Shown here piece after piece: positions 3,700 to 58,475 of a DNA stretch of 64,000 nt. Under the pieces are notes generated by a model. That model did no database searches, had not been told where the DNA came from, and saw only the letters and a list, made by a program, of their open reading frames with translations. The DNA lies in the IMG/VR virus record IMGVR_UViG_3300010348_001730, positions 1 to 64,000 of that record. One strand, written 5' to 3'. The stretch comes from a virus (Duplodnaviria; Caudoviricetes). Position 1 is the first letter of the stretch. Every line of letters begins with the position of its first letter. A program made the translations under genes and the position numbers.

Positions 3700-6600
3700 A
3701 TGGCATGTACGTATATTAATCCAAAAACTAAAAATGAATTAGCTCTGTCTAACATTTTAAGAGAATACTATAAACTAGACGATTCTAAAGAGTCGTCTCA
3801 GTTTTTAGATTCTAAAATTAAAATGTTCTTTACAGATGATTTTAAACAAATTTTTGGAGATTGGATAAATGAAGATAAAGAATTATTTGGTAATAGAGTA
3901 AATGAATTTGGAGAACCTAACTTATATAAAGATGGGGAAAACTTTTATGTTTATGATTTAAATAATGAAAAATATTTTATTAATAATAGAAGATTTGAAG
4001 GTTTAGAACAATATGAAGGTTTAGCTCAAGATTTATCAAAACTTAAAGAAGAAGGAACTTCAAAAATTGTAAATTATATATTTACAAAATATAAAAATAA
4101 AGATGAAGATATCACAGATCTTGAAAATATATCTTTTAATTTAGAAGATGAAGTTGATAATTTTTTCAAAGACCAAATTAAAGAAAATCCTTATCTTGAA
4201 GAAGATATGTCAATTCTTTCTCAATTTAAAGAAGATTTTGTTTTAGAAGTTAAAGATTATTTAAACAATATAAATATTGTTTATAATGAAGATCCTGATA
4301 CAGACGATCAATCTTATCAAGATTCTTTAGAAGATAATGGTGCAGTTGTCGGTAAAAGTTCTATTGAAAAAAATAGTAAAGATAATGCTACAGTATCTGT
4401 TAAATTAATGATGTCATTAATTCCAGATATTAACTCTGAATCAGAGTTTTTTACAGGATATAAATTACTACCATTTAGTAAAATATGGAATGATGTCCAA
4501 AAAACTTTATCAGATGTACCTAAAATAATGTCTGATGTTAATGGTAATGTTGTAGACCCTTATTCCATAATGATTTCTAGATTAAATAAAATGGCAATAA
4601 CTAAACCTTATATTCAAGGTTTAATTGATATTTTAGAAACATCTAGTAAAAATTTACAAACACAATTTGTTCAAGCTTTTGCAAATAATGGTAAATATAT
4701 TCAAGATACTCTTGAAATAGATCCTGCTACAGGAACTTATTCTTTAATAAATGCTGCAGAATCTTCATCTAAAAAATCTAAGTTATTGATTGAAGCAGGA
4801 TTAAATTTTAAATCATTGTTTACTACATTAGATACAAAAAGTGATAAAAGATCATTTGATTTACTATCTTATGAAAAATTTAGAAAAAAATATCTTGATT
4901 TACAACGTAATGAAAAAGAAACTAAAGGTTTATTAATACAGTTAAAAAATATTCAAAAAACTATTGAAAATACAGAAATTCCATCTAATGATAAAATTTT
5001 AGAAAGAGATAGAATTTTAAAAGACATTGTAAATCTTTTTTCAGAAATAATTACAAATTTAGGATTTCCTTTAACAGGAGATAGTTTAAATTATTTTCTT
5101 TCTGAAAATGGTAAATTAAGAGAACCTAGTGTTAATTCAACAATTAAACAAATTGAAGATTTTGTAATAAGTTTTAATTATATTGATAAATTTTTAATTC
5201 CCAACATTAATTTAACAAATGATCAAAAAATTAATGTTGCTACAGATAAATTGTTTGATAAATCTGGAAAATATTTAAATATTTATAAAGGTGAAAAAAA
5301 TCAAATTACTAGTCAAAAAGTAATTGAAAACATTGCTGAAGCTATTGGATTTTTTAACACAGATTTAAATGAAGATATGTTTTTCTCTGGAGATAAGCAA
5401 ATGTGGGTATATTCTCAAACATCTCATTTATATGATGTAATAAACATACTAAACAATGATCCTAAAGAAGTTGAAAAAAGATTATCGTTATCATTTACTA
5501 AAAATTCAAAATATTTAAAACTTTATCAAGAAGGAAAAAAACTTAAAATTCATCGTACAAACAGTATGATGGAAAAAGATAAAGCTTCTGAATCAAAAGA
5601 TAATGTTAATACTTCTAAAACAGATGCTATAAATAGAGAAATATTTGAAGCTCTTTTAGGTAAAAAACATAACGCAAATTCTATTTTTCCAACAGCAATT
5701 GCTGCTGATAAACCTACAACTTTAAAATTAGAAGTTCCAAATTTTATAGAATCAAGAGCTTTTGAAAATGAAGATGGTGAAATTCAATTATCAGAAGAAG
5801 TATTAGATATTTTTACAGGATATTTTGAAGATGAACTTTTAACAGCATTAGAAGCTAAAAAATTTATTGCTGACAATACAGATTCTAAAGGAAATGTTGA
5901 TGTATCAAAATTAACACAATATAAACATGTTAGTGCAGATGGATATGTTTTTAGTGTTTTAGATGCTAAAGGTAATTCAATATTAAAAACTAATAATGTT
6001 TTAGAAGCGGAAAATCTATATCAAAAAAATATTGAAAAAGGATATAGAAAAATATATCTTGGAGGAGTTTTTAAAAATTTTACAACACCTTCATTATCTC
6101 CAGAAAATCTTATTAAAAGACCTGAAATTTTTAAATTATTTTATAATTTAGATTTTACACCTATTTTAATTAATGAATTAACAGAACAACAAAAAATAAC
6201 AATAAAACCAATACTTAATAAATTATTAAGTAATTTAATAAAAGATAATATTAAATATGCCGTTGATGCAAAAGTTTTTAGGAAGAGTTTTGCTAAAAAT
6301 ACATTTGATTCTAATTTATATAAATTATATTCTGAGAATTATGATTTAAAAAGTACAGATTCTAATTATTTAAAAGATGCATATAAAGCAATTGTTACAG
6401 ATATAATGTCTGATTATACAATTAATAGTACTATTGCTCAAATCGAATTTTCTAAAATATTTAATGGTTCTATTAATAATCATAAAAATGCAGTTGATTA
6501 TTTTAAACGTGTACCTAAAACATATATTGATGGTAAAGGACTTAGATTAGGACTTACTGAAGGAGATCATAATTTCAATGTTACAGTATTGCAAGATGTA

Positions 6601-52712: not shown

Positions 52713-53438
52713 CTAATTGTTTTTCTTACCAAACATGATAGGAAATAGGAATACAGTCAATGTAATAGCACTAAATATTAAATCAGTGTTATGTCCATTA
52801 AGAATTGCGTGAATTTTTGTTTCTGGAAAGAAATCAAATATTCCTGCTAAAGCCATTTTAAGACCTAATAGTAATATTACGTAAAATACACTTAATTCTA
52901 ATGAAGGATATTTATTAAGTATTGATGAAAAATATTGTGCAACAAATCTCATAGCTAATATACCTAATGCTACAGCACTACATACAATCCAGAAATTATT
53001 ACTTAGACTGACAACTGCTACCAGATTATCAATACTAAATACAATATCTAAAAATTCCACCATTACTACTGTAGTCCAGAATTTATTTAAACCTATCCAA
53101 TTACATAATTTTTGTAACCAACCTGGTTCTTTTCCTTCTTCAACACTATCAGGTTCTACTGTTAAATGTGTGTAAAACAAATGACATAAATACAATCCAC
53201 CTGCAATTTTAAACCACGCTCCTACAGAAGGATTATAAATAATCCAACTTACAAAAGCTAAAGATAATCCTCTAAAAAGATAAGCTCCAATAATACCATA
53301 TGTCATGGCATGTTTTCTTTGTTTCTCATCTTTTAAATTTTTGTTAACAATAACTGCAATAACGCTCGCATTATCAACACTAAGTATAACTTCAATCAAT
53401 AAGATATTAAGAAATACTAAAATACTTGTTGTAATCAT
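52713..53438 (-). CDS. terC: TerC-family membrane protein
   Basis: 'EVILSVDNASVIA', 'YGIIGAYLFR', 'DIVFSIDN', 'GILAMRF'. Confidence 0.9.
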   Translation of the reverse strand: MITTSILVFLNILLIEVILSVDNASVIAVIVNKNLKDEKQRKHAMTYGIIGAYLFRGLSLAFVSWIIYNPSVGAWFKIAGGLYLCHLFYTHLTVEPDSVEEGKEPGWLQKLCNWIGLNKFWTTVVMVEFLDIVFSIDNLVAVVSLSNNFWIVCSAVALGILAMRFVAQYFSSILNKYPSLELSVFYVILLLGLKMALAGIFDFFPETKIHAILNGHNTDLIFSAITLTVFLFPIMFGKKNN

Positions 53439-53796
53439 AATAATTGGTTTTAACTGTTTTCTTTTTTTTTTAATTTACGTAATGTTTGATCTTTTCAATA
53501 TTTATATTATTATGCTGATAACCTTTCTTGAGTTGGTTACGAGGACTGGATACCTCCATCTTATAGGTTACGAGCCTAATGAGCATTATATAAATATTAT
53601 TCAATCAGTCAGAGCATACCTGAATATTTAGCTGAAGACTTAATTTATGAATTTTAAAAATGATAAAGTTAGCACCCTCTTGTCTTATTCACAGAATGGC
53701 AACCTTAATAGGTAATCTCTGCTATTATAAGAGTAGGGTCACGTAGTTTGGTGTTTCAACTCACCAGATTGTTCGCCAAAGCTTTTTTTACTACTT

Positions 53797-53892
53797 GCTG
53801 AGAACTCATTTGTGTTATGTAGCTAATAGATTTCTCTATAATGTTTGCTTATTGCTACCTGCTTTGATTCCTTTCTCAAGGGAACAACACAT
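53797..53892 (-). ncRNA. Candidate structured RNA with pseudoknot
   Basis: UGUGUU/AACACA closing stem, UUCC/GGAA hairpin whose loop UGAGAA is complementary to downstream UUCUCA, AUAGA-GAAA-UCUAU hairpin; lies in a 1 kb ORF-free region. Confidence 0.4.
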
Positions 53893-54516
53893 CTAGGATT
53901 ACTCCAAATAAAACTTTTGAGATAAAACTGCAAGTTTGCAAACTTTGTTATTCATATTTTTATTTATCCTGTCAATTCAGGATTAGTATCTTTATGTAAA
54001 TTAATAAGAATGGACTTTAAAAGTCTGACAAACTTTTTCTTATTTACAAAGGTATTCAATGTTTAACCTTTATTTTATTTTAAAAAGTTAAATATCTCTT
54101 ATACATAATACTATTACATATTACGTTCTGTACTTTCTTTTTTCTAATTAGATTTCTAATCCTTATTAGTTATAGATTTCCCTCAAGATACAATTTCTTA
54201 TTCCTAGGAAGACTTGTCACTTATGAGTAAGACTTACGTGAAGGTAGTTCTACCATCATTAATATTTAACTTTTATATTTTAAAAAATCACTTGTCCATA
54301 TCTAGTGGAATAACTTCATACTACACCCCAGTTACGAGGATACCCTCACTACTTCAAACAGCCCATTCAGCACTTTATACATTACGCCTAAGTAGTTACT
54401 CTATTATTTTTCATTAACCTTTACAATAAACACAACTGCTAGTACAGTTTTAATAAGGAGCTTTGTTTCAAGCATTAGAAATCTCTGACATATTTGTTTA
54501 TCTTCAAGCAAGTGAT

Positions 54517-54666: not shown

Positions 54667-54680
54667 AATTATAAATTTTG

Positions 54681-54766
54681 TACTCAGAGCGGGACTTGAA
54701 CCCGCACGGACATTGCTGTTCACTGGATTTTAAGTCCAGCGTGTCTACCAATTTCACCATCCGAGC
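54681..54766 (-). tRNA. tRNA-Leu(UAA)
   Basis: GCUCGGA acceptor, CUGGA-CUUAAAA-UCCAG anticodon arm, long variable arm, GCGGG-UUCAAGU-CCCGC T arm. Confidence 0.95.
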
Positions 54767-54940: not shown

Positions 54941-54942
54941 AG

Positions 54943-55016
54943 TATCTCCAGTAGGATTCAAACCTACGACCTATAGGTTAGAAACCTATTGCTCTATTCA
55001 ACTGAGCTATGGAGAC
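54943..55016 (-). tRNA. tRNA-Arg(UCU)
   Basis: GUCUCCA acceptor, AUAGG-UUUCUAA-CCUAU anticodon arm, GUAGG-UUUGAAU-CCUAC T arm. Confidence 0.9.
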
Positions 55017-55163: not shown

Positions 55164-55193
55164 TTTTGTTTTTATGAGGAATATCCTCTTTAG

Positions 55194-55550
55194 TGGAGAC
55201 GGGGAGAGTCGAACTCCCGTCATACTAATTTTTCAATAAAATAAATTTACAGCTTTTAGGGTCAAAAGTTTTTGACTACCACCACTTCATTTTATGGTTG
55301 AAGAACCTCGATAGCAATTTTATTAATTGTCAATTTCCTATTTAAGCTTAGGCAGCTACTAACATTGGTGCAACATAAGTTCCTTTACCAATAACAGTTT
55401 CGCTATTAAGAATATTATGAACTACTTTCATGTTAGCTTTTACTTGGTTGTTTTCTACGTTTCCGTTTATTGAATTTCACCTTAGTTTACAGTTATCTCT
55501 CTGGCTGTTTATTTTACTTACTAGATTCGCATTCAAATCCATTCGTCCCC
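55194..55550 (-). ncRNA. ssrA: tmRNA
   Basis: 5' GGGGACG pairs with 3' CGUCUCC-A with G3.U Ala identity; GGAUUUGA 5' motif; GGGAG-UUCGACU-CUCCC T arm; internal tag ORF 55464-55348 ending LVAA*. Confidence 0.9.
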
Positions 55551-55663
55551 TTTCGATTTTTTATTATTTTTCAATTTTTTAATAAATCTAAAAGATTCAA
55601 TAATTGTTAAAAAAATACACCAAAAAACAAGAAATATTATTGAAAAATATATTTTATTCATAG

Positions 55664-56765
55664 TCAGATTAATTTTAATAATTCAAATTTCAGTTTTGAT
55701 TTTTTATTGTTGCTGTAATTAATCTTTTCAACTTACATTTTTTTTTCGAGGACTAGTTGCTGACCAATTCGCATAGTTAAATTCGATTCGAACGAATATA
55801 CACCAGTTTTAATCTAAAATTGCTGTTAGTAAGTTTGTCAGATAACTCCGATATTCCACACCAAGTGCCTCGGCTATAGGGCTAGGGAATCGAACCCATT
55901 TCGTCTCTTGTGACAAAAAAGTGATAGAGTGAAATTTGCTGTTTGTTATCTTATCAGTAGTGCTTTTTTTGAAGTAATCGGATTTGCAGTCTGAGTTTCA
56001 TAAAAAATTTGCTGTGACACTACTTTTCAATTTCCATTTTAACGAATACAAATTAAAAGTTTGTTGTTTATAAATTTGCTGTTAGGAAATTTATCAGCTT
56101 TCATTTTTTGACAACCAGTCTTCAAGATAGGAATCGAACCTCTCTAGAGCATAATGGAGCTTAAATGTAATTTGCTGTTAGAAAGCTTTTCAGATCATAT
56201 AATAATACGTGCTCTAACCAACTGAGCTAAAGATAAGACATTCTTATCCTCTCAGACTCGAACTGAGGACCACGAGGTTGACAGCCTATTTATAAATTGC
56301 AGTAAATGATCTTGTCAGAATGTATTTTACGTTGTGTTACATTACACCATGTTGAACGAATGTTCTCACTGGATTTTTACCAGAACCACGGCACCAAAAG
56401 CTTTTAAATTGCTGTTGACATTCTTATCAGGATACATCTGGTTTTTCAAAGTATAGAAAGTTTTGAATTGCTGTAAATATCCTTATCCTCCTAGTTTCCT
56501 AGGGGATTAAATGAATGAGTTTTCATTATGTTTACAATCAGACATTTAGTATTGAACAGGTGTAGTTTCAATATCTGAAGTTATTAAATAATGTTTCTCA
56601 TTTTCGTAGCGTGTCTAATTTTTAGTATTTAGATTTGCTGTTTCTACACCTAAATATCAGCTTGTTATAGCTGTATTGTTAGGGGTGCTCACTTGCAGGC
56701 TGTGAGTTAGTCTTAATATAGGTAAGATTTATAATTGTGAGTTTGCAGTTCATAACCTGACAGGT
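55664..56765 (-). repeat. Tandem array of stem-ACAGCAA RNA units carrying tRNA-like inserts (Y-RNA-like)
   Basis: 9 abutting units (55664-56485) plus 2 looser units; each is a 7-bp stem, 2 nt, AC(A/U)GCAA, variable insert, complementary stem, GAHA linker. Confidence 0.85.
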
Positions 56766-56791
56766 TAAGTAATGCCGTCCACCCCATATCT

Positions 56792-58471
56792 TTACATCTT
56801 TATCAGATGCATTATTTCTTGATCCATTGCTGCTTCAAATAATTCGGCAGCAGTTGAAGGTGCTTTTTTCTCAGCTTGTTCTTCTGTTCCTGTAAGGAAT
56901 GCTACAGTAGAACCATCATAGCCTGAAAAATAAAAAATGTTTTTTACATCACCATAAGTTTCAAATTTATTTCCAGCTCCTCTACGTTGAAGATTCCATA
57001 AAACAATTTGAAAATTAGCAACATATTCTTTAGAAAATCCTGCATGTTTTAATAACTGTAATGCTGATTCAACATTAGTCTTGTTTAATTGACCGGGATT
57101 AAATTCATTATCTGAAATACAAAGTATTCCTGTAGGAAATTCTGATTCAGAAATACCTTTTGATTTAATAGAACATAATAGTTGAATTACTGATAAAAAT
57201 TCTGTACTACCAACATAATGGCTGCTATCATTTACCCATTTTTCATAAGGTGTAGAACCTTTCCAAAAATGTAATTTTGCAGAACTATTAAATTCTATCC
57301 AAGCATTAGCAAAAGCACCTTTAGGTAACATTTCACTGAAGAATAAAGCTAAAGCTTTTGCAATACCAAAACAAGATTGCGTTGTACCTGTAGCTGGTGA
57401 AATCATAGATCCAGAAGTATCTCTTACTACAATAAGTGAAGTATTTTGATTAGCTCCTTTTTTGGCAGTTTCAACTAATCCTCTAAATTGAGAATTTAAA
57501 GTATCAATTTGATATTTCTTTTGAGATATCTTAGTAAACAATTCATGAGGATATCCTGTAAATTTAGCAACAGGTCTTGACTCAATCCATTTCTCATACT
57601 TAGCTTCTAATTTATTATTAGCTAAATATTTACCGGACACCATTAAAGCTAATGCTCTACCATGTACAGTATCAAAATCTACAAGGTTATGTTTACCTTG
57701 TGAAATTAATTGTTGCCATTGATGTGCAGTACCAGATGTTTTAAGCTTTCTATATGTTCTATAGTTTTTATAATTATCCTCTTGTGTTTTACCACCAAAT
57801 AATAAACTACAAATCCATTTAGCAATAAGATTATCTGCTTGAGCTTCAACAGTATTACATTTAGAATTGGCTTTTATTTGTGGTAAATATTTCTTTACGA
57901 GATTTGTAGAATTTTCATTCTCAAGTCCAGCTAATAATAATTTACCAAAATTATTCCAATCTAATTGTCTATCTTTCCAACCATTGTATTGTAAATCATA
58001 AGATAACATTTGAATAATATCTTTCCATGAACCAGCAGAAATGTATAATTGGATATTGTTCCAAAATACATTTTTGTGGTTGATTGAAAGCCATATCATT
58101 CTAACAATACCTTCATGTCTCAATCCAGAACCTCTTTGAACTGATTTAGTTTTTGTACCATCAAATAATGATACAACACGAGTAATCATTCTAATAAAGA
58201 AGATTAAACAAACAGTTAATCTTGGATTTTTTCCATACAACGTGGAAACATCTCTTGAGATATCTGAATAGCTTCTAGGACTTTTCATTGTTCCAAGCTG
58301 TCCAAATTGATCTACAAAATCATTACCTGTTGTAGAGTATTTTATTGCTCCATTTTCTGATTTAACAGTAGCTGTTTTTTGTTGCGCTGCTGATAAAAAA
58401 GAATTTTTTGTTGCAACATTAGAATCAGATGATGAGGTTGAAAACAACCTACTTTTTTTTGCTTCAAACAT
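56792..58471 (-). CDS. TROVE/Ro60-related protein (DUF2828-like helical domain + vWA)
   Basis: 'GNDFVDQF', 'GSGLR', 'GSWKD', 'KYLP', 'YRKL', 'YPHEL', MIDAS 'VVRDTSGSM', 'ISDNEFN', 'IVLWNL', 'SGY'. Confidence 0.8.
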   Translation of the reverse strand: MFEAKKSRLFSTSSSDSNVATKNSFLSAAQQKTATVKSENGAIKYSTTGNDFVDQFGQLGTMKSPRSYSDISRDVSTLYGKNPRLTVCLIFFIRMITRVVSLFDGTKTKSVQRGSGLRHEGIVRMIWLSINHKNVFWNNIQLYISAGSWKDIIQMLSYDLQYNGWKDRQLDWNNFGKLLLAGLENENSTNLVKKYLPQIKANSKCNTVEAQADNLIAKWICSLLFGGKTQEDNYKNYRTYRKLKTSGTAHQWQQLISQGKHNLVDFDTVHGRALALMVSGKYLANNKLEAKYEKWIESRPVAKFTGYPHELFTKISQKKYQIDTLNSQFRGLVETAKKGANQNTSLIVVRDTSGSMISPATGTTQSCFGIAKALALFFSEMLPKGAFANAWIEFNSSAKLHFWKGSTPYEKWVNDSSHYVGSTEFLSVIQLLCSIKSKGISESEFPTGILCISDNEFNPGQLNKTNVESALQLLKHAGFSKEYVANFQIVLWNLQRRGAGNKFETYGDVKNIFYFSGYDGSTVAFLTGTEEQAEKKAPSTAAELFEAAMDQEIMHLIKM

Positions 58472-58475
58472 CTTG

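What the first reader, a model, noticed from the sequence alone, without database searches (positions are those of the whole stretch)
55664..58471. TROVE/Ro60-like gene followed by a tandem array of about 11 Y-RNA-like units: candidate multiplexed RNP system
Seen in sequence (- strand): nine units abut exactly (56427-56485, 56315-56426, 56190-56314, 56094-56189, 56027-56093, 55954-56026, 55838-55953, 55728-55837, 55664-55727), with two looser units at 56556-56652 and about 56657-56765. Each reads [7-nt stem]-NN-AC(A/U)GCAA-[variable insert]-[complementary stem]-GAHA. The stems all differ yet stay paired: AGGAUAU/GUAUCCU, AGAAUGU/ACAUUCU, AGAUCAU/AUGAUCU, AGCUUUC/GAAAGCU, AAUUUCC/GGAAAUU, AGUAGUG/CACUACU, AGAUAAC/GUUAUCU, AACUUAC/GUAAGUU, AGAUUAA/UUAAUCU. 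This is strong internal covariation, so structure rather than sequence is being conserved. The array starts about 30 nt after the stop of a DUF2828/TROVE-vWA gene on the same strand. Established: Ro60/Rsr proteins bind Y RNAs through a terminal stem and are usually encoded beside them. Inference: stem+ACAGCAA is the binding handle for this protein, the GAHA linkers are processing sites, and the array yields a set of RNPs with one handle and different payloads, CRISPR-like in logic.
Basis: partly seen in the sequence, partly recalled or inferred. Interest (0 to 1): 0.95.

Follow-up and report, generated by a model that had tools for sequence, protein, structure and literature searches.

The report
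Phage Ro60-like protein with RNA array
A gut-type phage encodes a ring-shaped Ro60-like protein followed by ten back-to-back small RNA genes that share one "handle" and carry tRNA parts. This protein-RNA pairing recurs across very distant phages, has no published description that I could find, and closely resembles the unexplained Class I RNAs of social amoebae.

Summary
On the minus strand, a 559-aa gene (56792-58471) is followed by 10 clear units and one doubtful unit. Each unit reads [A-G/A-N5-6 arm]-N1-2-AC(A/U)GCAA-[variable insert]-[complementary arm]-G-N3. Nine of them tile exactly, with 4-nt GAHA linkers.

- **Protein:** the predicted fold is that of Ro60 (Z 22.4 to Xenopus Ro60), with a complete MIDAS motif.
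- **Helix:** the terminal helix covaries strongly, with 96.8% of cells paired against 30-41% in slid controls.
- **Linkage:** a covariance model built from the units hits beside the homologous gene in crAss-like contigs and in a Leptolyngbya phage. It also hits beside the gene in Listeria A511, Enterococcus EFDG1, Bacillus Tsamsa, Fusobacterium Fnu1, Klebsiella KP2025, a Felixounavirus and a Saprospiraceae MAG, where protein identity falls to about 23%. An RNA-first scan recovers the gene (Fisher p = 8e-10).
- **Cargo:** the inserts are tRNA parts. Un-permuting unit U3 gives a complete tRNA-Asp.
- **Known families:** no Rfam family reaches its gathering score. The only sub-threshold hits on the units are YrlA and Dictyostelium Class I RNA.

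Best reading: these are partner RNAs of a Ro60-like protein, forming a set of RNPs with tRNA-mimic cargo. They probably act in phage-host conflict over tRNA. Binding and processing are untested.

This scan has already found the same pairing on at least 19 other genomes. This window holds one of the largest and most regular arrays.

The parts
56792..58471 (-). Gene for a 559-aa Ro60-like protein (Pfam DUF7788, weak DUF2828; PHROG 850 'RNA-binding protein'): HEAT-repeat ring plus vWA domain with MIDAS D351-x-S353-x-S355, T423, D454
58426..58473 (-). Possible handle mimic over the gene's own start codon: AG-AUG (58473-58469), then UUUGAAGCAA, then CAUCU (58431-57427 region: 58431-58427) and G. 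It is weak here (5 bp, degenerate motif) and clear in relatives L001, L005 and L006. Candidate autoregulatory site
56655..56758 (-). Doubtful first unit (AGGUUAU-GA-ACUGCAA ... AUAAC-AAG-CU-GAUA, bulged helix)
   Evidence: not detected by model R1
56554..56651 (-). Unit U0b: AGGUGUAG-AA-ACAGCAA ... CUACACCU-GUUC, AU-rich cargo with hairpins
   Evidence: weak R1 hit
56484..56553 (-). 70-nt spacer with a GC-rich hairpin, ending in GAUA
56425..56483 (-). Unit U1 (59 nt), short cargo hairpin. Best window match to Rfam Dicty_Class_I_RNA (32 bits)
56313..56424 (-). Unit U2 (112 nt), degenerate tRNA-like cargo
56188..56312 (-). Unit U3 (125 nt, ACUGCAA variant). Cargo is a circularly permuted tRNA-Asp(GUC): anticodon arm, T arm, acceptor stem closed by a loop, D arm
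   Evidence: (YrlA 28 bits)
56092..56187 (-). Unit U4 (96 nt), cargo with a T-loop-like GGUUCGAUUCC
56025..56091 (-). Unit U5 (67 nt), cargo hairpin CAAA-CUUUUAA-UUUG, read as a Lys(UUU)-type anticodon arm
   Evidence: read directly from the sequence (the unconstrained fold does not draw this hairpin)
55952..56024 (-). Unit U6 (73 nt), cargo with a Cys(GCA)-like loop CUGCAAA on an imperfect stem
55836..55951 (-). Unit U7 (116 nt), cargo with T arm GGG-UUCGAUU-CCC
55726..55835 (-). Unit U8 (110 nt), cargo with T arm AUUCG-UUCGAAU-CGAAU
55662..55725 (-). Unit U9 (64 nt), last unit, AU-rich cargo
55191..55550 (-). tmRNA gene directly downstream on the same strand. With tRNA-Arg (54942-55016) and tRNA-Leu (54680-54766) it forms a co-directional non-coding RNA tract. 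No terminator is predicted on this strand between the gene and these RNAs

Best explanation
The units are genes for the partner RNAs of the adjacent Ro60-like protein. The gene, the array and probably the downstream tmRNA and tRNAs are transcribed together. The transcript is cut at or near the fixed 4-nt linkers into about ten RNAs of 59-125 nt. Each RNA is closed by a 7-8-bp helix with conserved outer A-U and G-C pairs, an unpaired G after the 3' arm, and single-stranded ACAGCAA just inside the 5' arm. The ring-plus-vWA protein binds this common handle, as Ro60 binds the closing helix of Y RNAs. The variable module points outward. It consists of tRNA parts: anticodon-arm-like hairpins, T arms, and in U3 a whole permuted tRNA-Asp with a sealed acceptor end that cannot be charged. 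The result is a panel of RNPs that present different tRNA look-alikes. They most likely serve the phage in the conflict over tRNA, either as decoys or sponges for host tRNA-directed nucleases, or as tethers that bring tRNA-processing or repair enzymes to the ring.

Shown here: the anatomy, the covariation, the Ro60 fold and the gene-RNA linkage across phyla. Inferred: transcription, cleavage at the linkers, binding, and the biological role.
For: Fold: Z 22.4, rmsd 3.9 A over 414 residues to Xenopus Ro60; Z 21.8 to human Ro60; Z 15.7 to Thermus phage phiLo Ro60; Z 13.3 to Deinococcus Rsr. Foldseek agrees. A family profile finds Ro60 as its best PDB hit. The MIDAS residues are invariant.

Helix: 96.8% of cells are paired against 30-41% when the partner is slid, and all 8 pairs show compensatory changes.

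Linkage: model R1 gives 81 hits in the window plus 15 homologous loci, and all but 2 lie on the gene's strand beside the gene. R1 also hits beside the gene in Lbo-JY46, A511 and KP2025, a Saprospiraceae MAG, Tsamsa, EFDG1 and Fnu1 and a Felixounavirus. Units in Synechococcus phage B3 were found by eye.

RNA-first scan: 23 of 34 loci with an array hold the gene (24 with one hmmsearch rescue), against 2 of 46 loci without an array, p = 8e-10. Strand matched in all 23.

Linker: exactly 4 nt in 54 of 75 consecutive unit pairs.

Cargo: 55 seven-nucleotide hairpin loops against 11 +/- 2.7 in shuffles; 34 Y-U-NNN-R-N loops against 0.7. Un-permuted U3 is called tRNA-Asp. Of 41 long units in related loci, 15 give tRNAs, against 0 in reversed controls.

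Function clues: the Ro60-like gp130 of Bas63, which lies directly upstream of the tRNA genes of a Felixounavirus, counters the Ppl defence and can be moved to T7 (same genus and gene position). The GAP32 homologue lies next to an RNA ligase. One amoeba-transcriptome homologue is fused to a 2H phosphoesterase domain.
Against: There is no expression, processing or binding evidence for this phage; no RNA run was listed. The handle is not the Y RNA/YrlA helix, and YrlA stays far below its gathering score (28-40 against 69 bits), so Ro60-type binding is an analogy. In the preprint gp130 protected T7 when expressed alone from a plasmid, so the protein may work without phage RNAs. GAP32 has the gene but no detectable unit nearby. 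In several phages the gene sits in a tRNA cluster, so part of the linkage could reflect shared tRNA-operon location.
Confidence: 0.7

Rival explanations
1. The handle is a processing or stability signal read by host RNases, for example an acceptor-stem-like 7-bp helix with a discriminator-like G handled by RNase P/Z. The RNAs would then act on their own as tRNA decoys. The Ro60-like gene would be a neighbour only because both belong to phage tRNA islands.
For: The terminal helix is 7-8 bp with one conserved unpaired 3' G, and the units lie in or beside tRNA clusters in A511, KP2025, Tsamsa, EFDG1 and the Felixounavirus. The window array continues into tmRNA and tRNAs. gp130 alone sufficed against Ppl.
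Against: The linkage holds in loci with no nearby tRNA cluster (Fnu1; several crAss-like loci) and across about 23% protein identity. The units flip from downstream to upstream of the gene but stay adjacent and on its strand. Single-stranded ACAGCAA is invariant without any obvious role for RNase P/Z. A handle mimic over the gene's own start codon is easier to explain if the protein binds the handle.
Confidence: 0.13
2. The units are mainly cis-acting protein-binding sites in the gene's untranslated regions, used for autoregulation or titration of the protein. They would not be independent functional RNAs.
For: The units lie in the gene's 3' or 5' flank. In 7 of 15 relatives a handle-like element overlaps the start codon. 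The non-coding AG at -2/-1 occurs only where CAUCUG follows downstream.
Against: Ten units with elaborate and different tRNA-like cargo, exact 4-nt spacing, arrays 2.6-4 kb from the gene in L001, and units scattered between tRNA genes in the Felixounavirus all go beyond what a regulatory site needs.
Confidence: 0.05
3. The array is a graveyard of decayed or rearranged tRNA genes, or a DNA-level repeat, with no function as RNA.
For: Several cargos are degenerate: U2, U4, U7 and U8 give no tRNA after un-permutation.
Against: The helix arms differ in every unit yet stay paired, with G-U pairs on this strand only. The motif is invariant over 27 aligned units from 16 genomes. The architecture is conserved across bacterial phyla.
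Confidence: 0.02

Closest known systems
Ro60/Rsr with Y RNAs, especially bacterial and phage YrlA (Rfam RF02553; Chen et al. 2014, PMC4201824) and Thermus phage phiLo Ro60 with Yrl1/Yrl2 (PMC12135203, PDB 9KOP/9L5Y)
   Same: A ring of HEAT repeats plus a vWA/MIDAS domain. The small RNA genes lie beside the protein gene. The RNA is closed by a helix of its 5' and 3' ends. The second module mimics tRNA (T arm, acceptor stem closed by a loop, D arm). Occurrence in phages is known.
   Different: There is no Pfam TROVE match; the protein belongs to DUF7788/DUF2828, with about 10% identity to Ro60. The handle (outer A-U and G-C pairs, then NN-ACAGCAA, then a 3' G) is unlike the Y RNA helix. YrlA scores reach only 28-40 of the 69 bits required. 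There are up to 10-11 units in exact tandem instead of one or two. The cargo often includes a complete anticodon arm.
Dictyostelium Class I RNAs (Rfam RF01414; Kjellin et al. 2021, PMC7919456)
   Same: Same layout and partly the same letters: (A)AG start, a 6-7-bp covarying terminal stem...UUACAGCAA right after the 5' arm, a variable middle, an A-rich stretch before the 3' arm, a CUG(U) end, and about 60 nt in length. RF01414 hits fall only on units (32 bits in the window, up to 39.3 in Lbo-JY46, against a gathering score of 41.5). See also the joint alignment.
   Different: Class I RNAs are eukaryotic, transcribed singly from DUSE promoters, and reported as unique to Dictyostelia. Their only proven binder is the RRM protein Rnp1A/CIBP. 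They show no tRNA-like cargo and no arrays. Whether dictyostelids have a DUF2828-type protein could not be tested here.
Bas63 (Escherichia phage JohannRWettstein) gp130, the anti-Ppl protein of the PhageMaP preprint (10.1101/2024.10.10.617714)
   Same: A Ro60-like phage protein directly upstream of the tRNA genes of a Felixounavirus. The DUF2828-family homologue occupies that same position in another Felixounavirus, with units between the tRNAs. The authors guessed that some 'tRNA genes' might be Y RNAs.
   Different: I did not align gp130 itself. No RNA partner was identified in that work, and the protein acted without phage RNAs when expressed from a plasmid. The window's phage is unrelated, and its protein is only about 23% identical to the related Klebsiella phage KP2025 homologue.
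Phage tRNA operons and circularly permuted tRNA genes
   Same: Head-to-tail small structured RNA genes that need endonucleolytic processing. The U3 cargo is a permuted tRNA-Asp.
   Different: The units have no free acceptor end or CCA, so they cannot be charged. The permutation point carries the handle. ARAGORN and Rfam's tRNA model do not call them.
CRISPR arrays
   Same: One transcript with constant elements alternating with variable modules, beside the gene of the presumed binding protein.
   Different: The constant part is a split helix whose sequence differs in every unit. The variable part is structured tRNA mimicry rather than captured spacers. There are no cas genes. The likeness is one of layout only.

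Membership tests
Ro60 / TROVE proteins | Ring of alpha-helical HEAT-like repeats followed by a vWA domain | tested here: met
   AF2 model with pLDDT 92.7. Z 22.4 to Xenopus Ro60 (1yvr, 414 residues aligned), 21.8 to human Ro60 (9nf8), 15.7 to phiLo Ro60 (9kop), 13.3 to Deinococcus Rsr (2nvo). Foldseek's top hits are all Ro60.
Ro60 / TROVE proteins | MIDAS motif (DxSxS...T...D) in the vWA domain | tested here: met
   D351, S353 and S355 are invariant, and T423 and D454 nearly invariant, in 77 homologues. The profile aligns this stretch to the Ro60 MIDAS.
Ro60 / TROVE proteins | Sequence match to the Pfam TROVE domain | tested here: not met
   The Pfam scan at E <= 0.01 returns only DUF7788 and DUF2828. 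The profile-to-PDB match to Ro60 covers only the vWA part, at E 6e-4.
Ro60 / TROVE proteins | Binds the closing helix of a Y RNA | not testable with these tools
   Only the gene-RNA linkage is shown.
Pfam DUF7788 / DUF2828 | Score above the curated cut-off | tested here: met
   DUF7788 scores 39.2 bits against a cut-off of 27.1. DUF2828 scores only 15.2 against 29, but many close homologues carry both. PHROG 850 matches at E 7e-33.
YrlA / Y RNA (Rfam RF02553) | Rfam gathering score (69 bits) | tested here: not met
   28.1 bits on U3, and at most 40.1 bits on a KP2025 unit.
YrlA / Y RNA (Rfam RF02553) | tRNA-like module: T arm, acceptor stem closed by a loop, D arm | tested here: met
   U3 aligns to model positions 24-84. 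Un-permuted U3 is called tRNA-Asp by ARAGORN. This holds for U3 only; U2, U4, U7 and U8 are degenerate, and the short units lack the module.
Dictyostelium Class I RNA (Rfam RF01414) | Rfam gathering score (41.5 bits) | tested here: not met
   32.0 and 17.9 bits in the window. The best in relatives is 39.3 bits.
Dictyostelium Class I RNA (Rfam RF01414) | Short covarying stem joining the 5' and 3' ends, the 11-nt motif CCUUACAGCAA next to the 5' arm, (A)AG start, CUGU end, about 60 nt | tested here: inconclusive
   Met: the stem, the AG start, the CUG end, the length of the short units, and 7-9 of the 11 motif letters (UUACAGCAA in U1 and U9). The first letters of the motif and the linker length differ by one nucleotide. 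Promoter and taxon criteria do not apply to a phage.
CRISPR array | Identical direct repeats separated by unique spacers, with cas genes | tested here: not met
   The arms differ in every unit, only a 7-nt motif is constant, and no cas gene is nearby.

The most novel reading that the evidence does not exclude
The stem-ACAGCAA RNAs and the DUF2828/DUF7788 Ro60-like proteins are an ancient RNP pair that reaches from phages of at least five bacterial phyla into eukaryotes, and the Class I RNAs of Dictyostelia are its amoebal members. If so, these RNAs, orphan for 20 years, should bind a Ro60-like (DUF2828 or TROVE) protein. One candidate is DDB_G0281243, the protein of unknown function pulled down with Class I RNA DdR-21. 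The phage arrays would be multiplexed versions that display tRNA mimics to disarm tRNA-directed immunity.
Probability: 0.3. Interest if true: 0.9.

Novelty: new variant of a known kind. Interest (0 to 1): 0.8.

Why it matters
- **Protein family:** it gives a large, unstudied family a concrete RNA partner and a testable mode of action. The family is present in 711 GenBank phage records, including Listeria A511/P100, Felix O1-type, Enterococcus, Bacillus, Vibrio, Campylobacter and mycobacterial phages.
- **RNA family:** it defines an RNA family that is absent from Rfam.
- **Modularity:** Ro/Y-type RNPs can be multiplexed, here as one handle with ten different tRNA-like payloads. That suggests a general phage answer to tRNA-cleaving defences. 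It connects with the one functional datum available, in which a Ro60-like phage protein (Bas63 gp130), placed in this family by genus and gene position, counters the Ppl defence.
- **Class I RNAs:** the near-identity of the handle with Dictyostelium Class I RNAs turns their unknown function into something that can be tested directly.

Tried and rejected
- **Single-sequence AF2:** the model was useless (pLDDT 38.5). The alignment-based model replaced it.
- **The search for related loci:** Distant single queries gave almost nothing.
- **RNA sequencing runs:** no RNA holder was listed for the array, so read laying could not be used.
- **Promoter and terminator scan:** promoter-like sites were no more frequent than in shuffles, and no terminator lies in the array on its strand. 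Bacteroidota-type promoters are not covered by that scan.
- **Genome-wide R1 search of the Saprospiraceae MAG:** it found nothing because only 150 of 15,348 candidates were scored. A direct search of the locus did find the units.
- **GAP32:** the gene is present but no unit was found within 3 kb.
- **Longer fused forms of the protein:** none was found, which is weak evidence.
- **Cellular distribution:** a Pfam DUF2828 match was found in only 1 of 301 sampled genomes of the class that holds the Saprospiraceae MAG.
- **DUF2828 in Dictyostelium:** this could not be tested. No eukaryotic genome is searchable here. DDB_G0281243 appears in no held supplement or other paper. Amoebozoan transcriptome homologues (Rhizamoeba, Stereomyxa) are about 50% identical to Bacteroidota proteins, so they may come from prey bacteria or their phages.
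- **L016, the 'giant virus MAG' contig:** its protein clusters with phage proteins, so I do not count it as a giant virus.
- **Literature:** searches for DUF2828 and UCP015417 gave no functional study.
- **53.3-54.8 kb region:** it has no Rfam match.
- **U2, U4, U7 and U8:** they give no tRNA after un-permutation.
Full report
**What is there.** The window is AT-rich (74% A+T). It belongs to a 93.8-kb virus record estimated to be 94% complete.

On the minus strand, ORF 56792-58471 encodes a 559-aa protein. From 33 nt after its stop to 55662 lies a run of units with one plan:
- a 5' arm that starts A-G (or A-A);
- one or two free nucleotides;
- AC(A/U)GCAA;
- an insert of 32-98 nt;
- the exact complement of the 5' arm, ending C-U (or U-U);
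- G and three more nucleotides.

Nine units (U1-U9, 56483 down to 55662) tile with no base between them. Each four-nucleotide linker (GAUA, GACA, GAAA, GACU) is followed directly by the next A-G. A tenth unit, U0b (56558-56651), has an 8-bp helix and a perfect motif, and a 70-nt spacer separates it from U1. An eleventh candidate (56655-56758) has a bulged helix and I rate it doubtful. The nine tiled units and U0b all close with the terminal helix in their minimum-free-energy fold.

The array runs straight into a tmRNA (55191-55550), tRNA-Arg and tRNA-Leu on the same strand. No terminator is predicted on that strand between them.

**Is it more than chance?** Twenty-seven short units from the window and 15 related contigs align cleanly.
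- ACAGCAA and the G after the 3' arm are invariant.
- The eight helix positions are paired in 96.8% of cells, against 30-41% when the 3' partner is slid by 1-3 columns.
- All eight pairs show changes on both sides, and none of 500 shuffles reaches the observed covariation.

A covariance model built on this alignment (R1) finds 81 matches at E < 1 in the window plus 15 loci. All but two lie beside the gene and on its strand. In the whole genome of this phage R1 hits only the array.

**The protein.**
- **Families:** Pfam gives DUF7788 above its cut-off and DUF2828 below it. PHROGs gives family 850, 'RNA-binding protein'.
- **Fold:** with an alignment of 77 diverse homologues the AlphaFold model is confident (pLDDT 92.7). 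Its best structural matches, over the whole length, are Ro60 proteins: Xenopus (Z 22.4, 414 residues, rmsd 3.9 A), human (Z 21.8), Thermus phage phiLo (Z 15.7) and Deinococcus Rsr (Z 13.3). Isolated vWA domains follow at Z 10-12.
- **MIDAS:** the residues D351, S353, S355, T423 and D454 are conserved. A family profile finds Ro60 as its best PDB hit.
- **Standing:** this is a Ro60-fold protein that Pfam's TROVE model does not recognise.

**Linkage of gene and RNA.** Starting from the protein:
- **Close homologues:** all 15 IMG/VR homologues (42-69% identity) have units nearby. They lie mostly directly downstream, directly upstream in two loci, and 2.6-4 kb downstream in one.
- **Distant GenBank phages:** R1 hits lie within about 600 nt of the gene and on its strand.

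| Phage or genome | Protein identity | Units found |
|---|---|---|
| Leptolyngbya phage Lbo-JY46 | 48% | five |
| Listeria phage A511 | 24% | three by eye |
| Klebsiella phage KP2025 | 23% | five, two with YrlA-like bodies |
| Bacillus phage Tsamsa | about 25% | two |
| Enterococcus phage EFDG1 | about 23% | one by R1, a second by eye |
| Fusobacterium phage Fnu1 | about 24% | one |
| A Felixounavirus (VpaE1_ev108) | not measured | three R1 matches between tRNA genes (E 6e-4, 0.014, 0.21) |
| A Saprospiraceae MAG contig | not measured | six |
| Synechococcus phage B3 | about 24% | found by eye |
| Cronobacter phage GAP32 | about 23% | none |

Starting from the RNA, I scanned IMG/VR for the junction pattern CTGATAAG-N7-ACAGCAA. 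It returned 80 loci.
- 34 loci hold two or more units on one strand, and 23 of these contain a family gene (24 with one hmmsearch rescue).
- Of the 46 loci with fewer than two units, only 2 contain the gene (Fisher p = 8e-10).
- Strand agrees in all 23 cases.

The family is present in 711 GenBank phage records.

**The cargo.**
- **tRNA-type loops:** across 121 units from 21 loci, seven-nucleotide hairpin loops number 55, against 11 +/- 2.7 in shuffled inserts. Loops of the tRNA type Y-U-NNN-R-N number 34 against 0.7. About 13 of these are T loops and about 21 are anticodon-like.
- **U3:** it carries an Asp(GUC) anticodon arm, a T arm, an acceptor stem closed by a small loop and a D arm. When I rejoin the two halves in tRNA order, ARAGORN calls a complete tRNA-Asp.
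- **Other long units:** the same operation yields tRNAs for 15 of 41 long units in related loci and none in reversed controls.
- **Other window units:** U5 carries a Lys(UUU)-type arm. U6 carries a Cys-like loop. U4, U7 and U8 carry T arms.
- **Consequence:** the sealed acceptor end means these mimics cannot be charged.

**Spacing.** In loci chosen through the protein, 54 of 75 consecutive unit pairs are separated by exactly four nucleotides. Such a fixed ruler suggests that the linker is either part of what is recognised or a defined cleavage site. This is inference.

**Comparison with known RNA families.** No Rfam family reaches its gathering score on the units. Below threshold, two families hit, and they hit only units.
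- **YrlA:** it matches the tRNA-like bodies, at 28-40 bits against the 69 required.
- **Dicty_Class_I_RNA:** it matches the short units, at 32 bits in the window and 39.3 in Lbo-JY46 against the 41.5 required.

The Class I consensus and the published D. discoideum sequences share several features with the phage units:
- an (A)AG start;
- a covarying 6-7-bp terminal stem;
- UUACAGCAA just after the 5' arm;
- an A-rich run before the 3' arm;
- a CUG(U) end;
- a length of about 60 nt.

Kjellin et al. report Class I RNAs as unique to Dictyostelia (PMC7919456).

**Function.**
- **Published precedent:** bacterial and phage Ro60 bind adjacent Y RNAs whose second module mimics tRNA, and they recruit PNPase or accompany RtcB (PMC4201824, PMC12135203, PMC7824862).
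- **The DUF2828 branch:** the one experiment I found is the PhageMaP preprint. The Ro60-like gp130 of Bas63, directly upstream of the tRNA genes, counters the Ppl defence and protects T7 when transferred. Bas63 is a Felixounavirus, and in another member of that genus the DUF2828 homologue holds exactly that position.
- **Links to RNA repair:** the GAP32 homologue sits next to an RNA ligase. One amoeba-transcriptome homologue is fused to a 2H phosphoesterase domain.
- **My reading:** the array most likely supplies a panel of handle-tagged tRNA mimics that, held on the Ro60-like ring, engage host enzymes that act on tRNA. I cannot yet separate a decoy role from a tethering role.

**A possible feedback site.** In seven of fifteen crAss-like relatives, including weakly the window (58473-58426), the mRNA reads AG-AUG-UU..(A)CAGCAA or AAGCAA...(A)CAUCU-G. 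This is a handle-like element that encloses the start codon. R1 detects it in three loci. The non-coding AG at -2/-1 is present in exactly the seven loci that also have CAUCUG downstream. This fits translational autoregulation by the protein, but N-terminal peptide conservation is a confounder.

**Standing within this scan.** After reaching these conclusions I looked up earlier notes. The same pairing and the same Class I resemblance have been reported on at least 19 other genomes since mid-October, so this is not a first sighting for the scan. One of those notes led me to the PhageMaP preprint, which I then read myself.

New in this report:
- the size and regularity of this array;
- the 4-nt ruler;
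- the un-permutation test;
- the start-codon handle mimic;
- the lead that the DdR-21 pull-down included a protein of unknown function, DDB_G0281243. I could not identify it with these tools.

**Verdict.** The feature is real. Its strongest support is covariation plus two-way linkage across phyla. It is a new variant of the Ro60/Y RNA kind, with an undescribed RNA family. Transcription, processing, binding and role remain to be shown.

Noticed in passing
window 58426-58473 (-); L001, L005, L006 at 3999-4064: A handle-like element (AG-AUG-UUU-AACAGCAA ... AAACAUCU-G) overlaps the start codon of the Ro60-like gene in several relatives and, in weaker form, in the window. The non-coding AG before the ATG co-occurs with CAUCUG downstream in 7 of 7 loci. 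This may be an autoregulatory site.
   Followed up: partly
bioRxiv 10.1101/2020.04.05.026054 (no window coordinates): The pull-down with Dictyostelium Class I RNA DdR-21 gave GuaB, NdkC, CIBP/Rnp1A and DDB_G0281243. The last has no known function and is conserved in all Dictyostelia. Whether it is a DUF2828/TROVE-type protein is unknown and would be decisive for the amoeba link.
   Followed up: partly
L018:2498-3049 (Listeria phage A511): A ROOL-like RNA (87.5 bits, E 3e-16, below the gathering score of 99.1) lies between the tRNA genes and the units upstream of gp57. Large structured RNA, tRNAs, handle RNAs and the Ro60-like gene thus form one island.
   Followed up: no
window 53606-54509: An ORF-poor stretch of about 900 nt downstream of the tRNAs, flagged by another reader as ROOL/GOLLD-like. 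It has no Rfam match at E <= 1.
   Followed up: partly
window 55191-55550 (-): The phage tmRNA lies directly after the array. ARAGORN predicts an unusually long tag peptide (29 residues, ending LVAA).
   Followed up: no
P0238 (EukProt, Rhizamoeba saxonica transcriptome): An 843-aa protein joins DUF2828+DUF7788 to a 2H phosphoesterase/LigT-like domain (PF13563). Its nearest relatives are Bacteroidota proteins at about 50% identity, so a eukaryotic origin is uncertain.
   Followed up: partly
L025 (Cronobacter phage GAP32) 1504-4452: The DUF2828 homologue lies directly after an RNA ligase gene, and no stem-CAGCAA unit was found within 3 kb. It is the one clade sampled without a detectable partner RNA.
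   Followed up: partly
L016:1-125 (-) (IMG/VR 'GVMAG' contig): Identical 53-nt tandem repeats at the contig end each carry a handle (AAAUAC-AUC-CAGCAA ... GUAUUU-UGU). They lie on the strand opposite the adjacent DUF2828 gene. The protein clusters with phage proteins, so the giant-virus label is doubtful.
   Followed up: partly
window 52713-53438 (-): The phage encodes a TerC-family membrane protein (Pfam E 2e-42) a few kb downstream of the RNA island.
   Followed up: no
L027:4740-4870 and about 4990 (Synechococcus phage B3): Units with a variant motif CAGCCA (AGAUGAU-U-CAGCCA ... AUCAUCU-AG) flank a 'pseudo-tRNA' that appears to carry an insertion.
   Followed up: no
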